DNA from: Trypanosoma brucei
Taxonomy: Eukaryota
Assembly: GCA_000002445.1 (NCBI GenBank)
Contig: CP000066.1
Span: 576,001-640,000, forward strand
Reading direction: 5' to 3'
DNA length: 64,000 bases
Part shown: positions 53,540-63,390 of the stretch, one piece after another
Position numbering within the stretch: the first letter of the stretch is position 1
Layout: every line of letters begins with the position of its first letter
The notes under the pieces: model-generated
Databases searched by the model: none
What the model saw: the letters and a program-made list of their open reading frames with translations, nothing else
Told to the model about the DNA's origin: nothing
Position numbers and translations under genes: made by a program

Positions 53540-55197
53540 GCGGTGAAGGAAATATGAGAGTGTTATCAGGAGCCAACAGAATTTGTTTCTGAACTTTACC
53601 TTCCCTTCCTCTTTATTATTTCCCCTTATTTCAGTGATGATTCTGCTGCCGTCGCATTGTCCCACCCGCTACGTTCAATTATTTAGTAAATAGTTGGGAA
53701 GGGTGTCCACGTTTTTTTTTCAAGTTCTTTTTTTTTTTTTGGAACTTCCGGTCATATCCGAAATGGGCAGGGAGGTAGAAAGAGGAGGAAAGAGCAATAT
53801 AAACTTGGTTCCAGTCTGCGTTGCGTGAAATCCCCACGTTTCGAAACTGAAATAATATGTTCGAATGTTATGCTTAATAGTAACAATCACAATAATAATA
53901 ATAATACGTCTCACATCATCTTTCTTTCTTTCTTTATATTTAAATTTTTATTTGACAAAGAAAAAAGGATTATGGGTTTATAGTTAGGAAAAAATGACTA
54001 TATTTCCCCAATAACTGAGTTAAGGCGCATACCGCAGCAACATGCGAAACCCAAGTTTCAGTACCACTCAAATATACATTCATTAGTTAAAAATTTTTTT
54101 GCTTGCGGAATGAAGCTCGTTAGCTCACGCAAAAGGTGATGAAGTGGAACCGGCAATTTTTACAAAAAAAAAGCGTTATTGCTTTAATGACACAAGGGTG
54201 GGTATTCTTCGTAAAAACATAACGGCGTGATATGGGGTCAAATATGCGGACAGCCGCATATTTTAATTTTCGCACATGAAAAAAGCTCACCCGCAGCCAC
54301 ATCTCACTAGGGAAAGTTAGGAAGGGTAAAGTGCTCCCGCAAACGATGTGACGGAAGGATCAGAAATGATGCATTTGAAGATGGGGGCTGCCGGATTTTA
54401 TTATTTTGGGCCGGGGGAATACTCTTGCAAATGTGTGGAACGGGGGAAAAGGCAACACGAGGGGAGGGTTTTTTTTTAAAAAAAAGTGTCCGGGGAACAG
54501 GAATTTAATACGCTGTGCGGAGCATGGTGAAATTGGCAGAGGATGGTTTCATGGGAAGGACAGAGGTAGAATTCGGGCAAAACTGCTTGGAAGAAACTAA
54601 GCGAGGGTGCAATTTGTTAGAAATATCTAAATAAAGCGAACGTGGCGGATTGGGGGAAAGGGCGAGAGGAAACGCAAGAAACGCGAGCGCTTCTGTCAAA
54701 TACGGAAATACAGGAAATTGGAAGCAGGGCCAAGTTATCCGGTCAGATGCATAAAGACGCAACTCCCTCGTAATAATCCTCTGGAGAATACCATTAGGAA
54801 GTTTTATTTTAAAAAAAAAAAACTTTCGAAGTTCAACGCAAGATTCTTCGGAAGTACCGCAAAACTAAAACCGTGCCTACACTCGCTCCAGTCGACAAGA
54901 CGCTTTTAGCTAGTTTCTCAGTTGAGGTTGCACCTTTTGCTCCCAAGCATACTTGTTGTTTTGCTTTATCTGAAGAGATATAAAAAAAATACCACGCATC
55001 CGCAAAATGCGTCTGAACCAAACCGATCTTTTATGTATCGTATCAACTAGCCGATGAGGTGCGTGAGGAAACTTCCTTCATAGAATTGCTAAAACAACAG
55101 GTGTGTGGGGAGGAAGAAAGTGTTGTATAACAGTTTTGCATCGTTAAGACTCCGTGGGCACGTACCTGAACCAAACGTTAGGATTTAAGGGGTGTGC
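53540..55197. terminator. Convergent strand-switch region (candidate RNA pol II transcription termination zone)
   Basis: The plus-strand array ends at 53539 and the minus-strand array ends at 55198. There is no credible CDS or tRNA between them. In trypanosomes such regions are the known termination sites, marked by base J, H3.V and H4.V. Confidence 0.75.
54153..54386 (+). repeat. Inverted-repeat arm A (about 234 bp)
   Basis: It is the reverse complement of 63159-63390. Hand alignment gives about 13 substitutions and 4 indel positions, e.g. the shared blocks ttattgctttaatg, cacaagggtgggtattcttcgtaaaaacataacggcgtgatatggggtcaaatatgcgga and ccacatctcactagggaaagttaggaagggtaaagtgctcccgcaaac. Confidence 0.9.
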
Positions 55198-56385
55198 TTA
55201 AAAAACTAGAAAAAATAACTTAAGTGGTTCTGGGAGGCGGTTTACACCGCTGGAGGTGAATAATCTTCGTATGGAAGTCACGCATTCGCTCCCATTCCAT
55301 TCGCACCGCGGCTTCTGTTCCAGGCAAGTTACCTTGCTTTCGAAACCAGAGCATCCTCTTTTAGAGGACGTAGTCGGTTTTTTCCCCTCCAGTCCATTAT
55401 CAGTATTATTGGATTCGTCCTTTTCTTTTTCGCTTGAATTGTTTGGGACAGGTCGTGCCCCCCTCTTCAATTCGTTTACTTGGTTTTGAATCTTCACGAG
55501 GTACTCCTCGGCTTGGATCAGTTCTTCCATTCTGGTTGCAGCTTCTCGCAACTTTAGATACCACGAAATTGTTGGCGTGCTTTCATTGACGTGTCTTGGG
55601 AGATATATTACGCATCGGCCATGGCCAACCTCGGTGCTTCCGTCGCAGCCGTTGTGTAAGTCGGCGCCGCGCGCGCCCAGTAAGTTTCGTGAATCCGATG
55701 AAGAGTCCGGTATTTCCTGGAGTTCGCCAAGGAAGAAAGCGACCGCCTCTGAGAGCGCTTGAAGCGGCCGAGTTTTCTCTCTCCTCACGTTGCTGCACTT
55801 GGGATGGAGCAAATTCCAGTGATCAGGAGAATTTCTCTGGGGTACCCATGATCCTACATAAGTGGTGTTGCATCCATCACAGCAAACCGCGCTGCCGCCT
55901 TTGCCTTCGCTGGATGCTGCACAGATGCACAGTAAATCAAGCGCCAGCGCATCACCCGCTTTATTTCCGGGCTGGCCGCCAGCTCTTCCACATAACTCCG
56001 ACCTCCCACCCCGCGTGCGCCCGACCACCACCTGTTTATGACCGTTGCCGTACAGCGCTTCTGTTAAATTTTTTCTGATAGCTGATAAGGCCCGGCCGTT
56101 CCATAAATCACCGTTCTCTTCCTTATATGTTTTCGCTTTTAGTTTAAGTTCCTCAAGTTTTTTAACATTTTCTTCGGGCGCTTCGGCCTCTCCCTGAATT
56201 TCGTCTTCTGTTTCCTTAACCTTGCGCTCCAGATCCTCCGGTGTTTGTGTATCCAGCGCAAGATTTACAAAACCACACAGCGCTTCGAATTCCTTTCCAT
56301 TCACAATGTTGTTTTCATGCGCCTTTGAATTGACGCAGATATGTTGCAGCGTTACCACCGCAACAAACACGATGTAACTCCTCAT
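55198..56385 (-). CDS. VSG-related (b-type N-domain-like) surface protein with signal peptide and hydrophobic C-terminal tail
   Basis: The ORF-track start at 56553 is TTG. The likely start is the ATG at 56385, giving the signal peptide MRSYIVFVAVVTLQHICVNS (395 aa). Motifs are KEFEALCGFVNL and GDALALDLLCICAASS, with many Cys residues. The C-terminus SSGVNRLPEPLKLFFLVF is GPI-signal-like. Confidence 0.78.
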   Translation of the reverse strand: MRSYIVFVAVVTLQHICVNSKAHENNIVNGKEFEALCGFVNLALDTQTPEDLERKVKETEDEIQGEAEAPEENVKKLEELKLKAKTYKEENGDLWNGRALSAIRKNLTEALYGNGHKQVVVGRTRGGRSELCGRAGGQPGNKAGDALALDLLCICAASSEGKGGSAVCCDGCNTTYVGSWVPQRNSPDHWNLLHPKCSNVRREKTRPLQALSEAVAFFLGELQEIPDSSSDSRNLLGARGADLHNGCDGSTEVGHGRCVIYLPRHVNESTPTISWYLKLREAATRMEELIQAEEYLVKIQNQVNELKRGARPVPNNSSEKEKDESNNTDNGLEGKKPTTSSKRGCSGFESKVTCLEQKPRCEWNGSECVTSIRRLFTSSGVNRLPEPLKLFFLVF

Positions 56386-56831: not shown

Positions 56832-58202
56832 CTAAGACATACAAAAAAGGGATAGAATCATTAATGTAAAAATATCAGTTGTTATATCTATATAGTTGAA
56901 TCCATTATTATTTACTTCAGCATTGCCACCTTCACCATCATCCTGACCTCGGTTACTTCGCCATAGCTCAGCATCACCACCTAGCTTCACCTCAAGAAAT
57001 ATTTCCTCTGCCTCATGTTGGTATTCTTCCAATTCGTGAAGATGACTGTCAGACTCTTTGGCATACTTTGCCATTTCTTGTAGTTGCTCGGTGGCGTTAG
57101 TAAGATGGTTGTACCAAGGGATCCCACCATTTTCAAGTGTGTAGTTGTAGCTGACACATGTGAATCCAGCAGTATGACCCGTGCAGGTGCGATTCTCGTT
57201 GTTTAATGTTTTCACATAACCAAGAATACCCTTCACCTGATACTTATCCTGTTCCATTTCCACTAACGCATCGAACTGAGCTAGCGCACTCTTTAAGGTT
57301 TTCACATTAGATGCAATATTCTTGTACACGCAAGCTTTACTAATCACATCCCATGCCTCAGTATGGTTGTATTTTATATTTTCAGGCTTGCAGGTATTAT
57401 AGTTGCTCGGACAATACTCAGCCATCATAGTCCAACTACCATTTTTAGGTCTCCTTATTGCATCCTTACAAGGACAGTCATATCCACTGTATATGTTTTC
57501 ACTACTTGAGCCAGTATCCATTTGGTATACGCGTGTCTGTCGCTCTTCCTTCTTTTTTTCTATAGCCTCTCCCACACATAGGCAAAAGAAGTCATTAATT
57601 AGTGTCTTTCCAACTAGCTTGTCTCCGTAAGAACCACAGCTTGCGTCCGCATTGTAGACACTATTGAACAACAGTGATTTGTTTCCCCTCATGGCTTCCT
57701 CCAGAGTTTTATTCTCATTTCTTGCCACATCCACAGCGTCGCCATACACAGCCCTCAGCATATTTTCTTCAGCAGAGCGACTTGCATTCAAGGCTTTTGT
57801 CCTATTCACCTCTATCTGCTCCTTAAGCTTTTTCGCCTTCTCAAATAGTTTCTTCATCTCCTGATATGCTGTCGTGCTGTTAGATGAATTGTTCGAGCCC
57901 TTATTGCCACCAGCAGCTTCTGCCTCACTGACCATTTCCTCCAAATTCTTCAGAATCTCTCCTTCCTTCTCACGATTCTTAAAGGAGGGTTGCGGGGCCT
58001 CTGCTTGCGTGATTCGGTAAATCTTGCACAGTGTTTCGAACTCACCAACGTTGTGATGTTTTTCATCTGCATCGACGGTCTCCATAATCCTATCCCAGTC
58101 AAGCATATCAGTTCTCCATCGATATTCTGCCATATCACCCTGAGAGGAAGGAGATAAAACAACCACAAGCATCCCAACGGCAAACACTGTTTCGTGTCTC
58201 AT
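56832..58202 (-). CDS. VSG-related (b-type N-domain-like) surface protein with signal peptide and hydrophobic C-terminal tail
   Basis: The ORF-track start at 58289 is TTG. The likely start is the ATG at 58202, giving MRHETVFAVGMLVVVLSPSSQG (456 aa). Motifs are GEFETLCKIYRI and GKTLINDFFCLCVGEA. The C-terminus DITTDIFTLMILSLFCMS is GPI-signal-like. Confidence 0.78.
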   Translation of the reverse strand: MRHETVFAVGMLVVVLSPSSQGDMAEYRWRTDMLDWDRIMETVDADEKHHNVGEFETLCKIYRITQAEAPQPSFKNREKEGEILKNLEEMVSEAEAAGGNKGSNNSSNSTTAYQEMKKLFEKAKKLKEQIEVNRTKALNASRSAEENMLRAVYGDAVDVARNENKTLEEAMRGNKSLLFNSVYNADASCGSYGDKLVGKTLINDFFCLCVGEAIEKKKEERQTRVYQMDTGSSSENIYSGYDCPCKDAIRRPKNGSWTMMAEYCPSNYNTCKPENIKYNHTEAWDVISKACVYKNIASNVKTLKSALAQFDALVEMEQDKYQVKGILGYVKTLNNENRTCTGHTAGFTCVSYNYTLENGGIPWYNHLTNATEQLQEMAKYAKESDSHLHELEEYQHEAEEIFLEVKLGGDAELWRSNRGQDDGEGGNAEVNNNGFNYIDITTDIFTLMILSLFCMS

Positions 58203-59418: not shown

Positions 59419-60393
59419 TCAGATGGTAAAATTAGTACTCTTCATATTATCAATGTTATTCGTGCTGAACTGCAGCGAAGTGAAATTCCTATGGATATCG
59501 TTGAAGTAGCTCTGCAGTAAAGTGATATTGGCCATCATATCCAGGAGTTCAGGAGGTGCTTTGCCAGAAGTAAAAGGTTCGATAAGAGGGTCAAATATCT
59601 CCTCCACGTAAATTTGGAGCTGAAAAAAAGCGGGGCCGTTCTCACGCCAGTTTATTAAGCCAGTTGAATTCTTCACCGCACCACCCTTATATAAGTTGTC
59701 ACGCGGTAAGTTCAAGCATTTGCTCACAGATCCAGATCCAGTTAAAACATCAATTTGAAGGCAACCTCCCCTGTATTTTTGGAGAGTGATCTCGTTCACA
59801 CCGGTTAATAAAGGACATGTCTGATCAACACATACGACTGGGAACCCCCTGACACCTTTCAGCGCTCCTTTCTTGCACTCGGGTCCTTCATCATTGCTCA
59901 CGGCTTTAACGTCATCCCACACAGTTCTTGCGATCTCAGCAATAGCTGTGTAATATTTATTTGATGTTATGAGGGCACCAGGTATTGCATTCCTCACTGC
60001 CCTCACGCTTTCATTAACCTCAGCAAATAATCCACCTGCCTTAGCAACAAGATCTCCCATTGCATTTCCATAAGATATAAGGTTTTCCAATTTATCATTT
60101 TCCTCTACCATTACACTGCTAATAACACTCAAATATATAACACTTTCGCCTGTTTTCCCTTCCATGTCATCCAGCATACGAGACGCATTTGCGTATACCT
60201 CCTCATTCAAAAAAAGCTTCCTCTCGCCATCTGTATATAGTTTGTTTAAGGCATCTGAAAGACATTTGAGGTAACATACGGATTGGTTTAAGTTTGTGCC
60301 CTTGTCATCATCTATTGATGTGCAATAACTTTCTTCTGCCACTCCAAAGGTCACAAAAAAAAAAACAACCAATCCTACAATCTTAATTTTCAT
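59419..60393 (-). CDS. Secreted/surface-family protein, divergent from its three neighbours, no C-terminal hydrophobic tail
   Basis: Within the 421-aa ORF the likely start is the ATG at 60393, giving the signal peptide MKIKIVGLVVFFFVTFGVAEES (324 aa). The helical N-terminal half is CYLKCLSDALNKLYTDGERKLF...AMGDLVAKAGGLFAEVNESVRAVRNAIPGAL and the middle is Cys-containing. It ends polar (NNIDNMKSTNFTI). It lacks the LC.C motif of the neighbouring genes. Confidence 0.62.
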   Translation of the reverse strand: MKIKIVGLVVFFFVTFGVAEESYCTSIDDDKGTNLNQSVCYLKCLSDALNKLYTDGERKLFLNEEVYANASRMLDDMEGKTGESVIYLSVISSVMVEENDKLENLISYGNAMGDLVAKAGGLFAEVNESVRAVRNAIPGALITSNKYYTAIAEIARTVWDDVKAVSNDEGPECKKGALKGVRGFPVVCVDQTCPLLTGVNEITLQKYRGGCLQIDVLTGSGSVSKCLNLPRDNLYKGGAVKNSTGLINWRENGPAFFQLQIYVEEIFDPLIEPFTSGKAPPELLDMMANITLLQSYFNDIHRNFTSLQFSTNNIDNMKSTNFTI

Positions 60394-61732
60394 TACTAAA
60401 CAATTACATTTGACAAGAGGAATGAAAAAAACACATACACATCGCCACACAAAACCAATGAGTGTCACAAATGTATAATCCCAATACCCACAGTGTTTCA
60501 TACACATAACATTGAACCACATAATAAATATTGCTACAAGAGACGTTAAACCCAACAGAATATGATGCTCCTTCTTCATTGTCAATCCTCCTTCATCCGT
60601 CACATCGTCATCATCCTCACTTCCATTGCATTTCCTCCCACTCTCCTTGAAATATTTACACACAATCAGGTTTTGAGATAGCAACTCTTTCAGTTTATTT
60701 TCATGCCCAGTAAAGGAAACAAAGATCAGCTCTACATCACCGTACCGTTTGGTGATACTCCCATATCATTTTGTGACTAAATTGTAGCTGTTGATAAGCT
60801 AGGGCACTATATCACTGAACATTAGGGTGACAACACCATCCCTATGGTAGTTAACGAAACCTCCGGTAGTTCCCACTATGAAAGTTCCAACTCCTGCAAC
60901 CGCAGCACCTTACGTACCCATGATCCAGCAATTGATGGTTGCTATCGGTTGTAAATTCAATTGGTTGATTAGCTGTGTAATTATTTGTGCAACCAATATA
61001 CCATCATTTGGCATATCTTCAGTGAAAGAGAAATTACACATGTTAGGAGATTCCGCTACTCTGTGCTTATGTTAATTACTTTAACATTCATTTCCTGAAG
61101 AGGCGGCTTTCTCCTTCACAAGACAACAACCATTTGCTTTAGCATTTGTTTGTCTAAAAACCATTACCAGATCCTTCAACACTTGTCCAATTGACAATGA
61201 TGCATTCACAACATGATTAGACACTCTTATTTCGTTTAAATAACTTGCGTCTATTACCTGTCCAGGTTCATCTGTATTCTTCATTATATTCCTCAACCTC
61301 TACGTTATCGCTTTCCATGCCCTTCCCTTTACATCATAGTGATATCACCACATCAGAAACCCATTCAACATTTACATAGCCTCCGATTGTCATCTTCAAA
61401 ACACTAACACTCACAGTCCCCAAGGCACAACTGAAGCTAAATACCGTTTGTGTCCCTTGACGGACACCTCAACTCAGTGCCAGGGTCTAGCACCCTGCTC
61501 AGGTAAGAGAAAAAAAGCGACAGCATCCTACTCCATTAGGATTAAGTTCAGACGGAAAATCCAAGGCTTCAATTCACAATGGAGCACACACCGTAAACGT
61601 TACAGGACAAGCATTATTCTTGGAAATAAAATAGGCACAGTTGCTGTGCCGTCAACTATACCAAAAAGAAATCCACTATTATTACCATTAGTGTTAGTAT
61701 TGGCGCAGTGGAGCCACATATGATGTTGTGTG

Positions 61733-62845
61733 TCACAGCAGAAAGAGCAAAAACACCACCAACGGTGAAATAGCCTGAGCGACATTTTTCGGCCGAAGTG
61801 GCTGGTGTGAGGGTTGGAGTGAGTGATTGGTTCTTGTTTCACCAAGAGGAACCAAGTCAGGGTCGGTGGTGCTTTGTGTAGCTGCACTTGTGTTGGGTGC
61901 CATTGGTGTATTGCCATCAGTTGCCGTTGAGGGAGATTGCTTGGGACGTTGCTCGGGAGATGGATCCTCCTCTGGTTGTACCTTTATTTCCGGGGGTGAC
62001 TGACGGGGTGGTGAGCCTCTTGTTGGAATAGGCGGTTCCCTCTGCTCCTGCGGTGGCATTTTGTTGACTTTTTGTGCATTTTCCTTTTTAGGGGTTTTCA
62101 ACCTTTTGACAAGGTCTTCTAGTTGTGTCAACCACTCAATTTTGACTTGATTTGCTCCTCCGCCTTCCATTTTATAGAAAACACATGGGGCGTTATTTGC
62201 ACTGCCAGACCCTCCACAAGATTTGGTGATCGGCTCCCGCCCGTGTCCGAAGCGCTTAGTTTCCCTCTCTGTTGTTTTCTCGGTCATTTCATTCAGTTTT
62301 TTCCTAAGATTTTGGACGGTTGTGGTTAATGATTCAAAACCGATGCTTTCTATATTAATTTGCTCGGTGCACTTTTGCTTGATTTTCCCCCAACTTTCTT
62401 CGGCTCTGTCCTTGTTTCCCCAACTTTCGGCAGGATCATACCACGCATTGGCTTCGTAGCACAGATTTTTTTGGTGGTCACCGTTTCCGCTGGGTCTGCA
62501 AAGACACAGAAGGTCCAGCGCTAACGCTTTGCCTCCAAATCCGCCTCCGAATATGCTGGTGTAGCCACAGTCAGCTTCTCGTTTTTCTTTTCCAGTCCAA
62601 TTAAGGGAGCCATCGCTGTCACTACCGTACAAGACTTTCATCGCGGAACTGTCGAAGTCGTTTGCGACCTCGGCTGTGAGTCTCTCTTTCTCCACCCACT
62701 CGTGTATTCTCAGTGTCAAATTTAAGAAACTGCAGAGCACGTCAAACTCCCTTTGGTTCAACGTATTTTCTATCTCTGCGGCCGGCACGCTCAACCCTGC
62801 CGCCTTCCAAACCACGCACAGCATAGTCACTAATATTTTCCACAT
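61733..62845 (-). CDS. VSG-related (b-type N-domain-like) surface protein with Pro/Ser/Thr-rich stalk and hydrophobic C-terminal tail
   Basis: The likely start is the ATG at 62845 (MWKILVTMLCVVWKAAGLSV) or at 62860. Motifs are REFDVLCSFLNL and GKALALDLLCLCRPSG. About 90 residues are P/S/T/Q-rich (PPQEQREPPIPTRGSPPRQSPPEIKVQPEEDPSPEQRPKQSPSTATDG...). The C-terminus AISPLVVFLLFLL is GPI-signal-like. Confidence 0.75.
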   Translation of the reverse strand: MWKILVTMLCVVWKAAGLSVPAAEIENTLNQREFDVLCSFLNLTLRIHEWVEKERLTAEVANDFDSSAMKVLYGSDSDGSLNWTGKEKREADCGYTSIFGGGFGGKALALDLLCLCRPSGNGDHQKNLCYEANAWYDPAESWGNKDRAEESWGKIKQKCTEQINIESIGFESLTTTVQNLRKKLNEMTEKTTERETKRFGHGREPITKSCGGSGSANNAPCVFYKMEGGGANQVKIEWLTQLEDLVKRLKTPKKENAQKVNKMPPQEQREPPIPTRGSPPRQSPPEIKVQPEEDPSPEQRPKQSPSTATDGNTPMAPNTSAATQSTTDPDLVPLGETRTNHSLQPSHQPLRPKNVAQAISPLVVFLLFLL

Positions 62846-63158
62846 CGCCTTCCTAAGCATCAATAAAAAAAATGAAACAGATAGTAGAGAAATCTCCAAT
62901 GAGAGGGGCAGGGACACTTTTAAAGGGTGAAAGTTTAACCCTATTAGGTATTTCATGAAACATCAGCAGAGGTCAACCAGAGAAGATATGAAAGCTCATA
63001 TCTCCATAGACTACATTTATTTTTTTAAAAGTCTCTTTACCATCCCAAGACTAGTTTGGCACTTAAGTTTACTTCTGGTTTTGATACTTGCTGCCATTGT
63101 CTTAACCTATCTGCCTTAAAGTTTTGATAACATCAAGGGTTTCCGCTCTTTTTTGGGG

Positions 63159-63390
63159 GCCTCCATCTTCAAATGCATCATTTCTGATCCTTCCGTCACA
63201 TTGTTTGCGGGAGCACTTTACCCTTCCTAACTTTCCCTAGTGAGATGTGGCTGCAGGAGAGCTTTTTCATATGTGGAAATAAAACCACGCGGCTATCCGC
63301 ATATTTGACCCCATATCACGCCGTTATGTTTTTACGAAGAATACCCACCCTTGTGCCATTAAAGCAATAACGTTTTTTTTGTAAAAATGC
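63159..63390 (-). repeat. Inverted-repeat arm B (about 232 bp)
   Basis: It is the reverse complement of 54153-54386 (see arm A) and lies about 200-300 nt upstream of the 61733-62845/62956 gene. Confidence 0.9.

What the first reader, a model, noticed from the sequence alone, without database searches (positions are those of the whole stretch)
59419..60684. The odd member of the cluster is a secreted helical protein without a membrane anchor among three anchor-tailed paralogues
Seen in the sequence: the third gene has a clear signal peptide (MKIKIVGLVVFFFVTFGVAEES). It lacks the EF..LC and LC.C motifs of its neighbours. Its N-terminal half is long and helix-like (…ENLISYGNAMGDLVAKAGGLFAEVNESVRAVRNAIPGALITSNKYYTAIAEIARTVWDD…), and it ends in polar residues (…NNIDNMKSTNFTI) with no hydrophobic tail. 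Established knowledge: the T. brucei transferrin receptor is a heterodimer of a GPI-anchored (ESAG6) and a non-anchored (ESAG7) VSG-fold protein, so anchored plus non-anchored pairs have precedent. Inference (speculative): this protein could be a soluble partner of one of the anchored neighbours, which would make the cluster a receptor-like module. Alternatively it is a truncated pseudogene of an a-type VSG-like gene.
Basis: partly seen in the sequence, partly recalled or inferred. Interest (0 to 1): 0.5.

Follow-up and report, generated by a model that had tools for sequence, protein, structure and literature searches.

The report
Chromosome-internal ESAG1 gene copy
The "odd" gene is an intact, already annotated copy of the Trypanosoma brucei ESAG1 family, in which every member has a signal peptide and no membrane anchor; it is ordinary, apart from a predicted receptor-like three-helix-bundle fold that the papers I could search do not report for this family.

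Summary
The window is T. brucei brucei TREU927 chromosome 3. The gene is real, but its CDS is 59419-60393 (-), 324 aa. The upstream 291 nt of the reported range is non-coding open frame. It matches XP_843846 at 100% ("ESAG protein, putative", probably Tb927.3.2520) and Pfam ESAG1 at E=8e-115 over the whole profile.

All 35 full-length ESAG1 proteins retrieved have a hydrophobic N-terminus and the same polar, sequon-rich C-terminus. The missing anchor is therefore a family trait, not a truncation.

The neighbours are b-type VSG-like genes: a VSG-related gene, a GRESAG2 and Tb927.3.2500. They show no detectable homology to ESAG1 (hhalign probability 0.3%), so the gene is not a divergent paralogue of them.

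Two AlphaFold models (pLDDT 65 and 75) give a long three-helix bundle with a variable Cys-rich head. In both, the ten best Foldseek PDB hits are African-trypanosome surface bundle proteins (HpHbR, factor H receptor, GARP, ISG65, MISP), with weak E-values (7e-4 to 4e-2). No VSG or ESAG6/7 appears.

The "soluble partner of an anchored neighbour" idea is untested, and indirect evidence weighs against it. Tagged ESAG1 is not at the surface while ESAG2 is, the T. b. gambiense orthologue is frameshifted beside intact neighbours, and other ESAG1 loci lack ESAG2.

The parts
59419..60393 (-). CDS of the ESAG1-family protein (324 aa plus stop at 59419-21). Equals XP_843846 / Q582W5 and is probably Tb927.3.2520. 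It is a chromosome-internal 'GRESAG1'.
   Evidence: 100% match to the annotated TREU927 protein. Pfam PF03238 E=8.4e-115, 382 bits against a cut-off of 27, profile 1-227/227. ATG position.
60337..60393 (-). Predicted cleavable signal peptide (aa 1-19, MKIKIVGLVVFFFVTFGVA|EES).
   Evidence: Read from the sequence: n-region, 14-residue h-region, and small residues at -3 and -1. The N-terminal 12-mer KD is 2.93, and all 35 full-length homologues have a hydrophobic N-terminus. No dedicated predictor was available.
60118..60291 (-). Predicted long helix 1 (aa 35-92), strongly conserved in the family.
   Evidence: AF2 models. Mean column entropy 0.59 bits.
59905..60099 (-). Predicted long helix 2 (aa 99-163), antiparallel to helix 1 and strongly conserved.
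   Evidence: Entropy 0.62 bits.
59557..59904 (-). Variable Cys-rich 'head' insert between helix 2 and helix 3 (aa 164-279), with five conserved Cys (173, 188, 193, 211, 226), short strands and short helices.
   Evidence: Entropy 1.67 bits. Model confidence here is low to moderate.
59458..59556 (-). Predicted helix 3 (aa 280-312), which completes the three-helix bundle.
59422..59457 (-). Polar C-terminal tail bearing an N-glycosylation sequon (aa 313-324, ...NNIDNMKSTNFTI). It has no hydrophobic GPI or TM signal.
   Evidence: All 35 full-length ESAG1s end with an equivalent polar tail.
60394..60684 (-). Upstream open frame that was included in the finding's coordinates but is not coding (5' flank/UTR).
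   Evidence: It is absent from the annotated protein and from all homologues. It has an in-frame stop in T. b. gambiense.
61733..62956 (-). Upstream neighbour: a VSG-related (VR) b-type VSG-like gene (XP_843847, Tb927.3.2540) with a hydrophobic GPI-type tail.
   Evidence: Pfam VSG_B 2e-27. Name. PMC2753553. Tail KD 2.93.
56832..58202 (-). Downstream neighbour: a GRESAG2 (ESAG2-family, b-type VSG-like, 456 aa, XP_843845) with a GPI-type tail.
   Evidence: 65-79% identity to named ESAG2/GRESAG2 proteins. VSG_B 1e-24. Tail KD 2.57.
55198..56385 (-). Tb927.3.2500, a b-type VSG-like 'hypothetical' protein (395 aa) with a weak, short hydrophobic tail.
   Evidence: VSG_B 4.4e-45. Name. Tail KD 1.43.
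54159..54388 (.). Arm 1 of a ~230-nt inverted repeat that brackets the four-gene cluster. It lies in the convergent strand-switch region.
   Evidence: 90-96% complementary. Conserved in T. b. gambiense.
63159..63387 (.). Arm 2 of the inverted repeat, just upstream of the VR gene.

Best explanation
This is a full-length, chromosome-internal member of the T. brucei-specific ESAG1 family (a 'GRESAG1', probably Tb927.3.2520). It sits in a small cluster of T. brucei-specific surface-type genes (VR, ESAG1-like, GRESAG2, Tb927.3.2500) at a convergent strand-switch region on chromosome 3.

Shown:
- It belongs to the ESAG1 family and is complete.
- The family-wide design is a hydrophobic N-terminal leader, 6-9 Cys beyond the leader (8 in most members, including the target), 4-10 N-glycosylation sequons (7 in the target), and a polar C-terminus with no GPI or TM signal.

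Inferred from two moderate-confidence AlphaFold models:
- After signal-peptide cleavage the protein folds in the ER as a disulfide-bonded, N-glycosylated, elongated three-helix bundle. The topology is helix down, helix up, variable Cys-rich head, helix down.
- This is the architecture of the trypanosome HpHbR / GARP / factor-H-receptor / ISG65 / MISP proteins, but the GPI or TM attachment that those proteins carry at the end of helix 3 is absent.

Inferred mechanism: it is a soluble or peripherally held luminal glycoprotein of the secretory/endocytic system. It would bind something through its very conserved helix 1-helix 2 hairpin, while the head diversifies. This particular copy is Pol II-context, diverged (at most 64% identical to any other copy found) and probably redundant, because its T. 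b. gambiense orthologue is frameshifted.
For: Identity: 100% match to the TREU927 protein on the 1,653,225-bp contig, and Pfam ESAG1 at 8.4e-115 over the full profile.

Completeness: the 34-sequence alignment is collinear from M1 to the last residue. All 35 full-length members lack a C-terminal hydrophobic stretch.

Family restriction: a profile search of 1.84 billion representatives finds only T. brucei-group ESAG1s. This agrees with PMC3605285.

Conservation: helices 1 and 2 have about 0.6 bits of entropy, the head about 1.7 bits.

Constraint: dN/dS is about 0.24 against the T. b. gambiense orthologue.

Literature: ESAG1 has a signal sequence but is not at the cell surface when tagged (PMC4587319). 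Transcript of Tb927.3.2520 was detected and found regulated (PMC9763322).

Against: No sequence or profile link to any bundle family was found.

No ligand, partner or localisation is known for this copy. The signal-peptide call rests on inspection, not on a trained predictor. [quoted passage not shown] The T. b. gambiense frameshift shows that this locus is dispensable in at least one subspecies.
Confidence: 0.85

Rival explanations
1. The anchorless protein is the soluble subunit of a heteromeric, receptor-like complex, and a GPI-anchored neighbour (GRESAG2, VR or Tb927.3.2500) holds it on the membrane, as ESAG7 pairs with ESAG6.
For: ESAG1 lies next to an ESAG2-family gene here. It also lies next to a frameshifted ESAG2 copy at one T. 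b. equiperdum locus (L005). In bloodstream expression sites the order is ESAG2-ESAG11-ESAG1, and these three share phylogenetic signal (PMC2567434). The helix 1/helix 2 hairpin is unusually conserved for a surface-type family, as a protein-protein interface would be. The protein has no anchor of its own.
Against: ESAG6/7 pair because they are close paralogues with a VSG-like dimer interface, whereas ESAG1 shows no homology to the b-type VSG-like neighbours (hhalign probability 0.3%; BLASTP E>4). Its best structural matches are HpHbR/GARP-type bundles, not VSG or TfR. Tagged ESAG2 is on the cell body and tagged ESAG1 is 'other', not surface. The T. b. gambiense ESAG1 orthologue is frameshifted while VR, ESAG2-like and Tb927.3.2500 stay intact. 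Four of the 5 other ESAG1 loci have no ESAG2 within 10 kb.
Confidence: 0.1
2. It is a truncated pseudogene of an a-type VSG-like (or other anchored) gene that lost its C-terminal anchor signal through a premature stop.
For: Only the absence of a hydrophobic tail, in a cluster whose other members have one.
Against: The full ESAG1 Pfam profile is covered to its last position. The other 33 full-length homologues in alignment A1, including expression-site copies, stop at the same aligned residue. No VSG, ESAG6/7 or other family is hit at E<=10, and no VSG or TfR is among the top structural hits. The reading frame is intact and dN/dS is about 0.24.
Confidence: 0.01
3. The copy is intact by sequence but functionally a redundant, decaying relic. 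It would be a dispersed duplicate with no role of its own, sitting at the transcription-termination end of a polycistron.
For: The syntenic T. b. gambiense orthologue has a +2 frameshift in a T-run, giving a premature stop. It also has substitutions at invariant or near-invariant family positions (Y87C, P280L). PMC3605285 counts 21 non-ES ESAG1 copies. [quoted passage not shown] The gene lies next to a convergent strand-switch region.
Against: In TREU927 the ORF is complete and every family-invariant residue is present. dN/dS of about 0.24 indicates past purifying selection. A transcript assigned to Tb927.3.2520 was measured and changed 3.5-fold in an RNA-seq study. The T. b. gambiense frameshift is in a homopolymer and could be a sequencing error.
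Confidence: 0.2
4. The N-terminal hydrophobic segment is an uncleaved signal-anchor, which would make the protein a type II membrane protein rather than a soluble one.
For: ESAG1 products have historically been described as membrane-associated glycoproteins (from my own recollection of 1980s work; not checked here). The protein has no other membrane attachment.
Against: The hydrophobic core is only about 14 residues in the target, too short for a stable span. It is followed by a canonical small -3/-1 site and acidic residues. The leader is poorly conserved in the family (entropy 1.7 bits), as cleaved signals are. PMC4587319 treats it as a signal sequence.
Confidence: 0.07

Closest known systems
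ESAG1 (Pfam PF03238) of T. brucei bloodstream expression sites, e.g. 'VSG expression site-associated protein 117A/221A'
   Same: Same family. The target is collinear over its full length with these proteins at 48-64% identity. It shares the leader, the Cys pattern, the N-glycosylation sequons and the polar C-terminus.
   Different: This copy is not in a telomeric expression site. It lies among core genes (PH-domain protein, Arv1, kinase, VPS9) on chromosome 3. It lies upstream of a GRESAG2 in the direction of transcription, the reverse of the BES order ESAG2-ESAG11-ESAG1. It is the most divergent full-length TREU927 copy recovered (best non-self hit 64%).
Trypanosome three-helical-bundle surface proteins: HpHbR (4e40, 4x0j, 4wjg), factor H receptor (6xz6), GARP (2y44), MISP (5vtl), ISG65 (7pi6, 8ovb)
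   Different: There is no detectable sequence or profile similarity. ESAG1 has a much larger Cys-rich insert between helices 2 and 3 (about 115 aa). It lacks the GPI anchor (HpHbR, GARP, FHR, MISP) or TM helix (ISG65). No ligand is known. Tagged ESAG1 is reported not to be at the cell surface.
ESAG6/ESAG7 transferrin receptor (GPI-anchored plus anchorless heterodimer)
   Same: The concept of an anchorless secretory protein encoded beside GPI-anchored VSG-like genes. Both families occur in expression sites.
   Different: ESAG6 and ESAG7 are close paralogues of a-type VSG fold, and ESAG7 is ESAG6 minus its C-terminus (PMC3605285). ESAG1 is unrelated to its neighbours, and neither TfR nor VSG appears among its structural matches.

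Membership tests
ESAG1 family (Pfam PF03238) | Scores above the curated Pfam threshold over the whole model | tested here: met
   382.4 bits against a cut-off of 27, E=8.4e-115, profile 1-227/227.
ESAG1 family (Pfam PF03238) | Full-length collinearity with expression-site ESAG1 proteins, including the conserved Cys and the common start and stop | tested here: met
   34-sequence alignment with 40 invariant columns including C40, C44, C173, C188 and C193. Lengths are 323-334 aa and all sequences end at the same aligned position.
ESAG1 family (Pfam PF03238) | N-terminal signal sequence and no C-terminal GPI/TM signal | tested here: met
   Hydropathy of 35 members. PMC4587319 states that ESAG1 contains a signal sequence. 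No trained signal-peptide or GPI predictor was available.
ESAG sensu stricto (expression-site associated) | Located in a telomeric VSG expression site, co-transcribed with the VSG | tested here: not met
   It is flanked by core housekeeping genes with conserved synteny in T. b. gambiense chromosome 3, and no VSG gene or ESAG7/6 promoter-proximal genes were seen in the parts of the window examined. It is therefore a gene related to ESAG1 (GRESAG1).
a-type VSG / ESAG6-7 / PAG (VSG-fold) | Sequence-profile match to VSG N-terminal or TfR-like families | tested here: not met
   Only PF03238 is hit in all 34 members at E<=10. No PDB sequence hit at E<=10.
a-type VSG / ESAG6-7 / PAG (VSG-fold) | Structural match to solved VSG or TfR structures | tested here: not met
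   No VSG, SRA or ESAG6/7 chain is in the top 50-60 of the three PDB fold searches.
b-type VSG-like (Pfam VSG_B; the neighbours' family) | Profile homology and the EF..LC / LC.C motifs | tested here: not met
   hhalign probability 0.3%. Both motifs are absent.
HpHbR/GARP-type three-helical-bundle surface proteins | Elongated three-helix bundle with a membrane-distal head, and the C-terminus at the membrane-proximal end | tested here: met
   Two AF2 models share the topology H35-92, H99-163, head, H280-312. Confidence is moderate (pLDDT 65 and 75).
HpHbR/GARP-type three-helical-bundle surface proteins | Significant structural similarity to solved members | tested here: inconclusive
HpHbR/GARP-type three-helical-bundle surface proteins | C-terminal GPI anchor (or TM helix in ISGs) and cell-surface or flagellar-pocket location | tested here: not met
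   There is no hydrophobic C-terminus in any ESAG1. Tagged ESAG1 is not at the surface.
ESAG6/7-like heterodimeric receptor | Physical complex between the anchorless and the anchored subunit | not testable with these tools
   No multimer prediction or interaction data were available. Indirect evidence is given under the rival explanations.

The most novel reading that the evidence does not exclude
ESAG1 has been described as having no homology beyond T. brucei and as having arisen de novo in the expression site (PMC3605285). It may instead be a highly diverged, anchorless offshoot of the African-trypanosome three-helical-bundle receptor superfamily (HpHbR/GARP/FHR/ISG/MISP). Under this reading it is a soluble ligand-binding or decoy glycoprotein of the flagellar pocket or endocytic lumen. 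It would use its conserved helical hairpin to bind a host or parasite partner while its head diversifies.
Probability: 0.4. Interest if true: 0.55.

Novelty: already known. Interest (0 to 1): 0.25.

Why it matters
The gene itself adds nothing new. It is an annotated member of a family known since the 1980s, and the missing anchor is a family trait. The useful by-product concerns the family. ESAG1 is one of the few ESAGs with no known function or ancestry. A reproducible, though only moderately confident, prediction places it among the three-helix-bundle receptors that trypanosomes use to capture host ligands such as haptoglobin-haemoglobin, factor H and C3. That gives a concrete hypothesis, an anchorless ligand binder, and a testable evolutionary origin. 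It also tells future readers of such windows that an "odd member" of a VSG-like cluster may simply belong to a different ESAG family.

Tried and rejected
- Sequence links to solved structures: hmmsearch of the ESAG1 profile against all PDB chains found nothing at E<=10.
- Weak Pfam links: scanning all 34 members at E<=10 gave only noise besides PF03238.
- Exhaustive profile search of 1.84 billion representatives found only T. brucei-group ESAG1s.
- hhalign of ESAG1 against the ESAG2/VR profile gave probability 0.3%, so paralogy with the neighbours was rejected.
- The Foldseek afdb50 library was unavailable, so fold relatives in T. congolense or T. vivax could not be sought.
- Exact-protein look-ups for the TREU927 ESAG1 copies P0024, P0031 and P0010 returned nothing. 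Adjacency was therefore sampled in T. b. gambiense and T. b. equiperdum instead.
- tRNA and Rfam scans of the strand-switch region and the inverted repeat were negative.
- Literature searches linking ESAG1 to AlphaFold, a helical bundle or haptoglobin found no statement about its fold.
- AlphaFold-Multimer with the neighbours could not be run with the tools offered.
Full report
**1. What is at the coordinates**

The minus-strand ORF 59419-60684 exists. That range is the mechanical TTG-to-stop frame, not the gene. The coding sequence runs from the ATG at 60393 to the stop at 59419-21 and encodes 324 aa.

This 324-aa product is 100% identical to XP_843846 / Q582W5, "expression site-associated gene (ESAG) protein, putative", of Trypanosoma brucei brucei TREU927. 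That protein is on a 1,653,225-bp contig, a size I recognise as chromosome 3; the Tb927.3 gene identifiers agree. One paper calls Tb927.3.2520 "ESAG 1" (PMC9763322). The neighbouring VR gene is Tb927.3.2540 (PMC2753553) and the last gene of the cluster is Tb927.3.2500. The target is therefore most probably Tb927.3.2520.

The 291 nt upstream of the ATG is not part of any homologue. It carries an in-frame stop in T. b. gambiense.

**2. Family assignment**

Pfam ESAG1 (PF03238) is hit at E=8.4e-115 (382 bits, cut-off 27) over profile positions 1-227 of 227. A word-indexed search returned 40 homologues, all from the T. brucei group (brucei, gambiense, rhodesiense, equiperdum), at 48-64% identity.

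The 34 full-length sequences align collinearly from Met1 to the last residue, with 40 invariant columns.

An exhaustive HMM search of 1.84 billion cluster representatives found only four clusters, all ESAG1. The most divergent is a 146-aa T. b. gambiense fragment. This reproduces the published statement that ESAG1 has no homology beyond T. brucei and has 21 non-expression-site copies (PMC3605285).

**3.

- Signal peptide: the sequence reads MKIK, then a 14-residue hydrophobic core, then G-V-A|E-E-S, which looks like a cleavable signal peptide. All 35 full-length members have a hydrophobic N-terminus. I had no trained predictor, but Gadelha et al. also treat ESAG1 as signal-sequence bearing (PMC4587319).
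- No anchor: no member has a hydrophobic C-terminal stretch. The maximum 12-mer Kyte-Doolittle value in the last 40 aa is 1.57 or less, against 2.57 for GRESAG2 and 2.93 for VR.
- Shared C-terminus: all members end in an equivalent polar, sequon-rich tail (...STNSTI).
- Conclusion: anchorlessness is a family trait, and this copy is not truncated.
- Secretory-pathway features: the target has 7 N-glycosylation sequons and 8 Cys.
- Motifs: EF..LC and LC.C are absent from the target and present in all three neighbours.

**4. The neighbours**

All three neighbours match Pfam VSG_B.

- The gene at 56832-58202 is a GRESAG2, 65-79% identical to named ESAG2/GRESAG2 proteins.
- The gene at 61733-62956 is annotated VSG-related.
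- The gene at 55198-56385 is Tb927.3.2500, a "hypothetical" protein with a VSG_B domain. Its hydrophobic tail is short and weak, so "three anchor-tailed" overstates the case.

ESAG1 is not detectably related to them. Profile-profile hhalign gives probability 0.3% and BLASTP gives E>4. The gene is therefore not a divergent paralogue within the cluster. It belongs to a different family that happens to be interleaved with the others.

**5. Fold**

Two AlphaFold2 models were built.

- The target with 34 sequences gave mean pLDDT 64.6 and pTM 0.52. The other four runs were poor, at 30-44.
- A bloodstream expression-site ESAG1 (117A) with 41 sequences gave pLDDT 74.9 and pTM 0.66.

Both give the same topology. 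In target numbering:
- a short N-terminal strand;
- helix 1 (aa 35-92);
- a tight turn;
- helix 2 (aa 99-163);
- a Cys-rich, partly β, low-confidence insert of about 115 residues;
- helix 3 (aa 280-312);
- a disordered polar tail.

The N-terminal segment and the insert lie at one end of the bundle. The helix 1-2 turn and the C-terminus lie at the other end.

Foldseek against the PDB was run on both models. In each, the ten best hits are T. congolense and T. brucei HpHbR, the T. brucei factor H receptor, ISG65, GARP and MISP. E-values are 1e-2 to 4e-2 for model 1 and 7e-4 to 1e-2 for model 2.

No VSG, SRA or ESAG6/7 structure appears in any list. I read this as moderate support for an HpHbR/GARP-type three-helical bundle, and as evidence against an a-type VSG fold. 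Common ancestry is unproven, because no sequence or profile signal exists. I found no paper in the searchable library that states this fold for ESAG1.

**6. Conservation pattern**

Across the family, helices 1 and 2 are very conserved (mean column entropy about 0.6 bits). More variable are:
- the N-terminal segment (1.8 bits);
- the helix 1-2 turn (1.5 bits);
- the head (1.7 bits);
- the tail (1.8 bits).

Published tests found near-significant positive selection in ESAG1 (PMC2567434). A conserved hairpin with a diversifying head fits a binding protein whose functional surface lies along the bundle, as in HpHbR (PMC5268388). This is inference only.

**7. Orthologue and selection**

The syntenic 14-kb region of T. 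b. gambiense DAL972 chromosome 3 is collinear and 95.2% identical. VR and Tb927.3.2500 are about 98% identical at the protein level, and a GRESAG2 is present. No gene is called where the ESAG1 copy should be.

The sequence is there, at 96% amino-acid identity over aa 19-257. A T7 to T9 change after codon ~254 shifts the frame to a premature stop. There are also in-frame +3 and -6 indels.

Substitutions include Y87C at a family-invariant position and P280L at a near-invariant one.

dN/dS between the two copies is about 0.24 (13.2 synonymous and 11.8 non-synonymous differences).

The TREU927 copy therefore looks constrained and intact. The locus is dispensable, or a sequencing error exists, in T. 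b. gambiense. No orthologue or paralogue has a C-terminal extension.

**8. The "receptor-like module" idea**

For:
- ESAG1 is adjacent to an ESAG2-family gene here.
- It is adjacent to a frameshifted ESAG2 at one T. b. equiperdum locus (L005).
- ESAG2-ESAG11-ESAG1 is a conserved, co-evolving block in expression sites.
- The helical hairpin is conserved, like an interface.

Against:
- There is no homology between the putative partners, unlike ESAG6/7 (PMC3605285).
- Endogenously tagged ESAG2 is on the cell-body surface, whereas tagged ESAG1 is classed "other" and is absent from the surface proteome.
- The T. b. gambiense neighbours persist without an intact local ESAG1.
- Of the five other ESAG1 loci examined within ±10 kb, one has ESAG2, two have only a distant VR-like gene 6-7 kb away, and two have neither.

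Multimer prediction could not be run. I put this model at about 0.1.

**9. Verdict**

The finding is a correctly described but already annotated ESAG1-family gene, and the puzzle of the "missing anchor" is explained by the family design. The truncated-VSG alternative is refuted, and the heterodimer speculation is unsupported.

The one point of some interest is at family level. ESAG1 is predicted, reproducibly but with moderate confidence, to share the three-helix-bundle architecture of trypanosome host-ligand receptors while lacking their anchor. This qualifies the published view that it arose de novo.

Noticed in passing
window 54159-54388 and 63159-63387: A ~230-nt inverted repeat (90-96% complementary, arms ~8.8 kb apart) brackets the whole four-gene VR/ESAG1/GRESAG2/Tb927.3.2500 cluster. 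Both arms are conserved in T. b. gambiense (L001 4779-5011 and 13805-14039). This suggests the cluster is an inserted or invertible segment. There is no Rfam or tRNA match.
   Followed up: partly
L001 7774-8744 (T. b. gambiense DAL972 chr3, FN554966.1), syntenic to window 59419-60393: The ESAG1-like orthologue is an uncalled pseudogene. A T7 to T9 homopolymer change after codon ~254 shifts the frame to a premature stop. It also has in-frame +3 and -6 indels and substitutions at conserved positions (Y87C, P280L). It could be a real loss or a homopolymer sequencing error.
   Followed up: yes
window 60232-60273 (codons 41-54 of the ESAG1-like gene): Ten of the 21 codon differences between the TREU927 and T. 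b. gambiense orthologues fall within these 14 codons. At three of the four amino-acid differences there, the T. b. gambiense residue matches residues common in the family alignment. This looks like a short gene-conversion patch, in line with the ~90-bp recombination tracts reported for ESAG1.
   Followed up: partly
window 56832-58202 vs L001 10001-11359: The GRESAG2 at the syntenic position is only 78% identical in protein between TREU927 and T. b. gambiense, whereas the flanking VR and Tb927.3.2500 are ~98% identical. This suggests replacement or conversion of this gene by another ESAG2 copy in one lineage.
   Followed up: no
window 53540-55197: A convergent strand-switch region. The plus-strand gene array (11.7-53.5 kb, ending with a 963-aa PH-domain protein) meets the minus-strand surface-gene cluster here. 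The region has no tRNA gene and contains long poly-T/poly-A runs.
   Followed up: partly
window 55198-56385 (Tb927.3.2500): This gene is annotated 'hypothetical' but has the strongest VSG_B match of the cluster (4.4e-45). Its C-terminal hydrophobic tail is unusually short (LKLFFLVF), so GPI anchoring is doubtful. The T. b. gambiense and equiperdum annotations start 34 codons further upstream (429 aa against 395 aa).
   Followed up: no
L001 1-3254 (beyond the window's right end in T. b. gambiense): Three tandem genes encoding 219-aa proteins with no Pfam hit lie just upstream of the VR gene on the same strand. They may be another T. brucei-specific tandem family next to the strand-switch region.
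   Followed up: no
PMC4587319 supplementary figure 2 legend: [quoted passage not shown] None of the 35 ESAG1 C-termini examined has the hydrophobic stretch that a GPI signal needs. The label may refer to the tagging vector or to a predictor false positive.
   Followed up: partly
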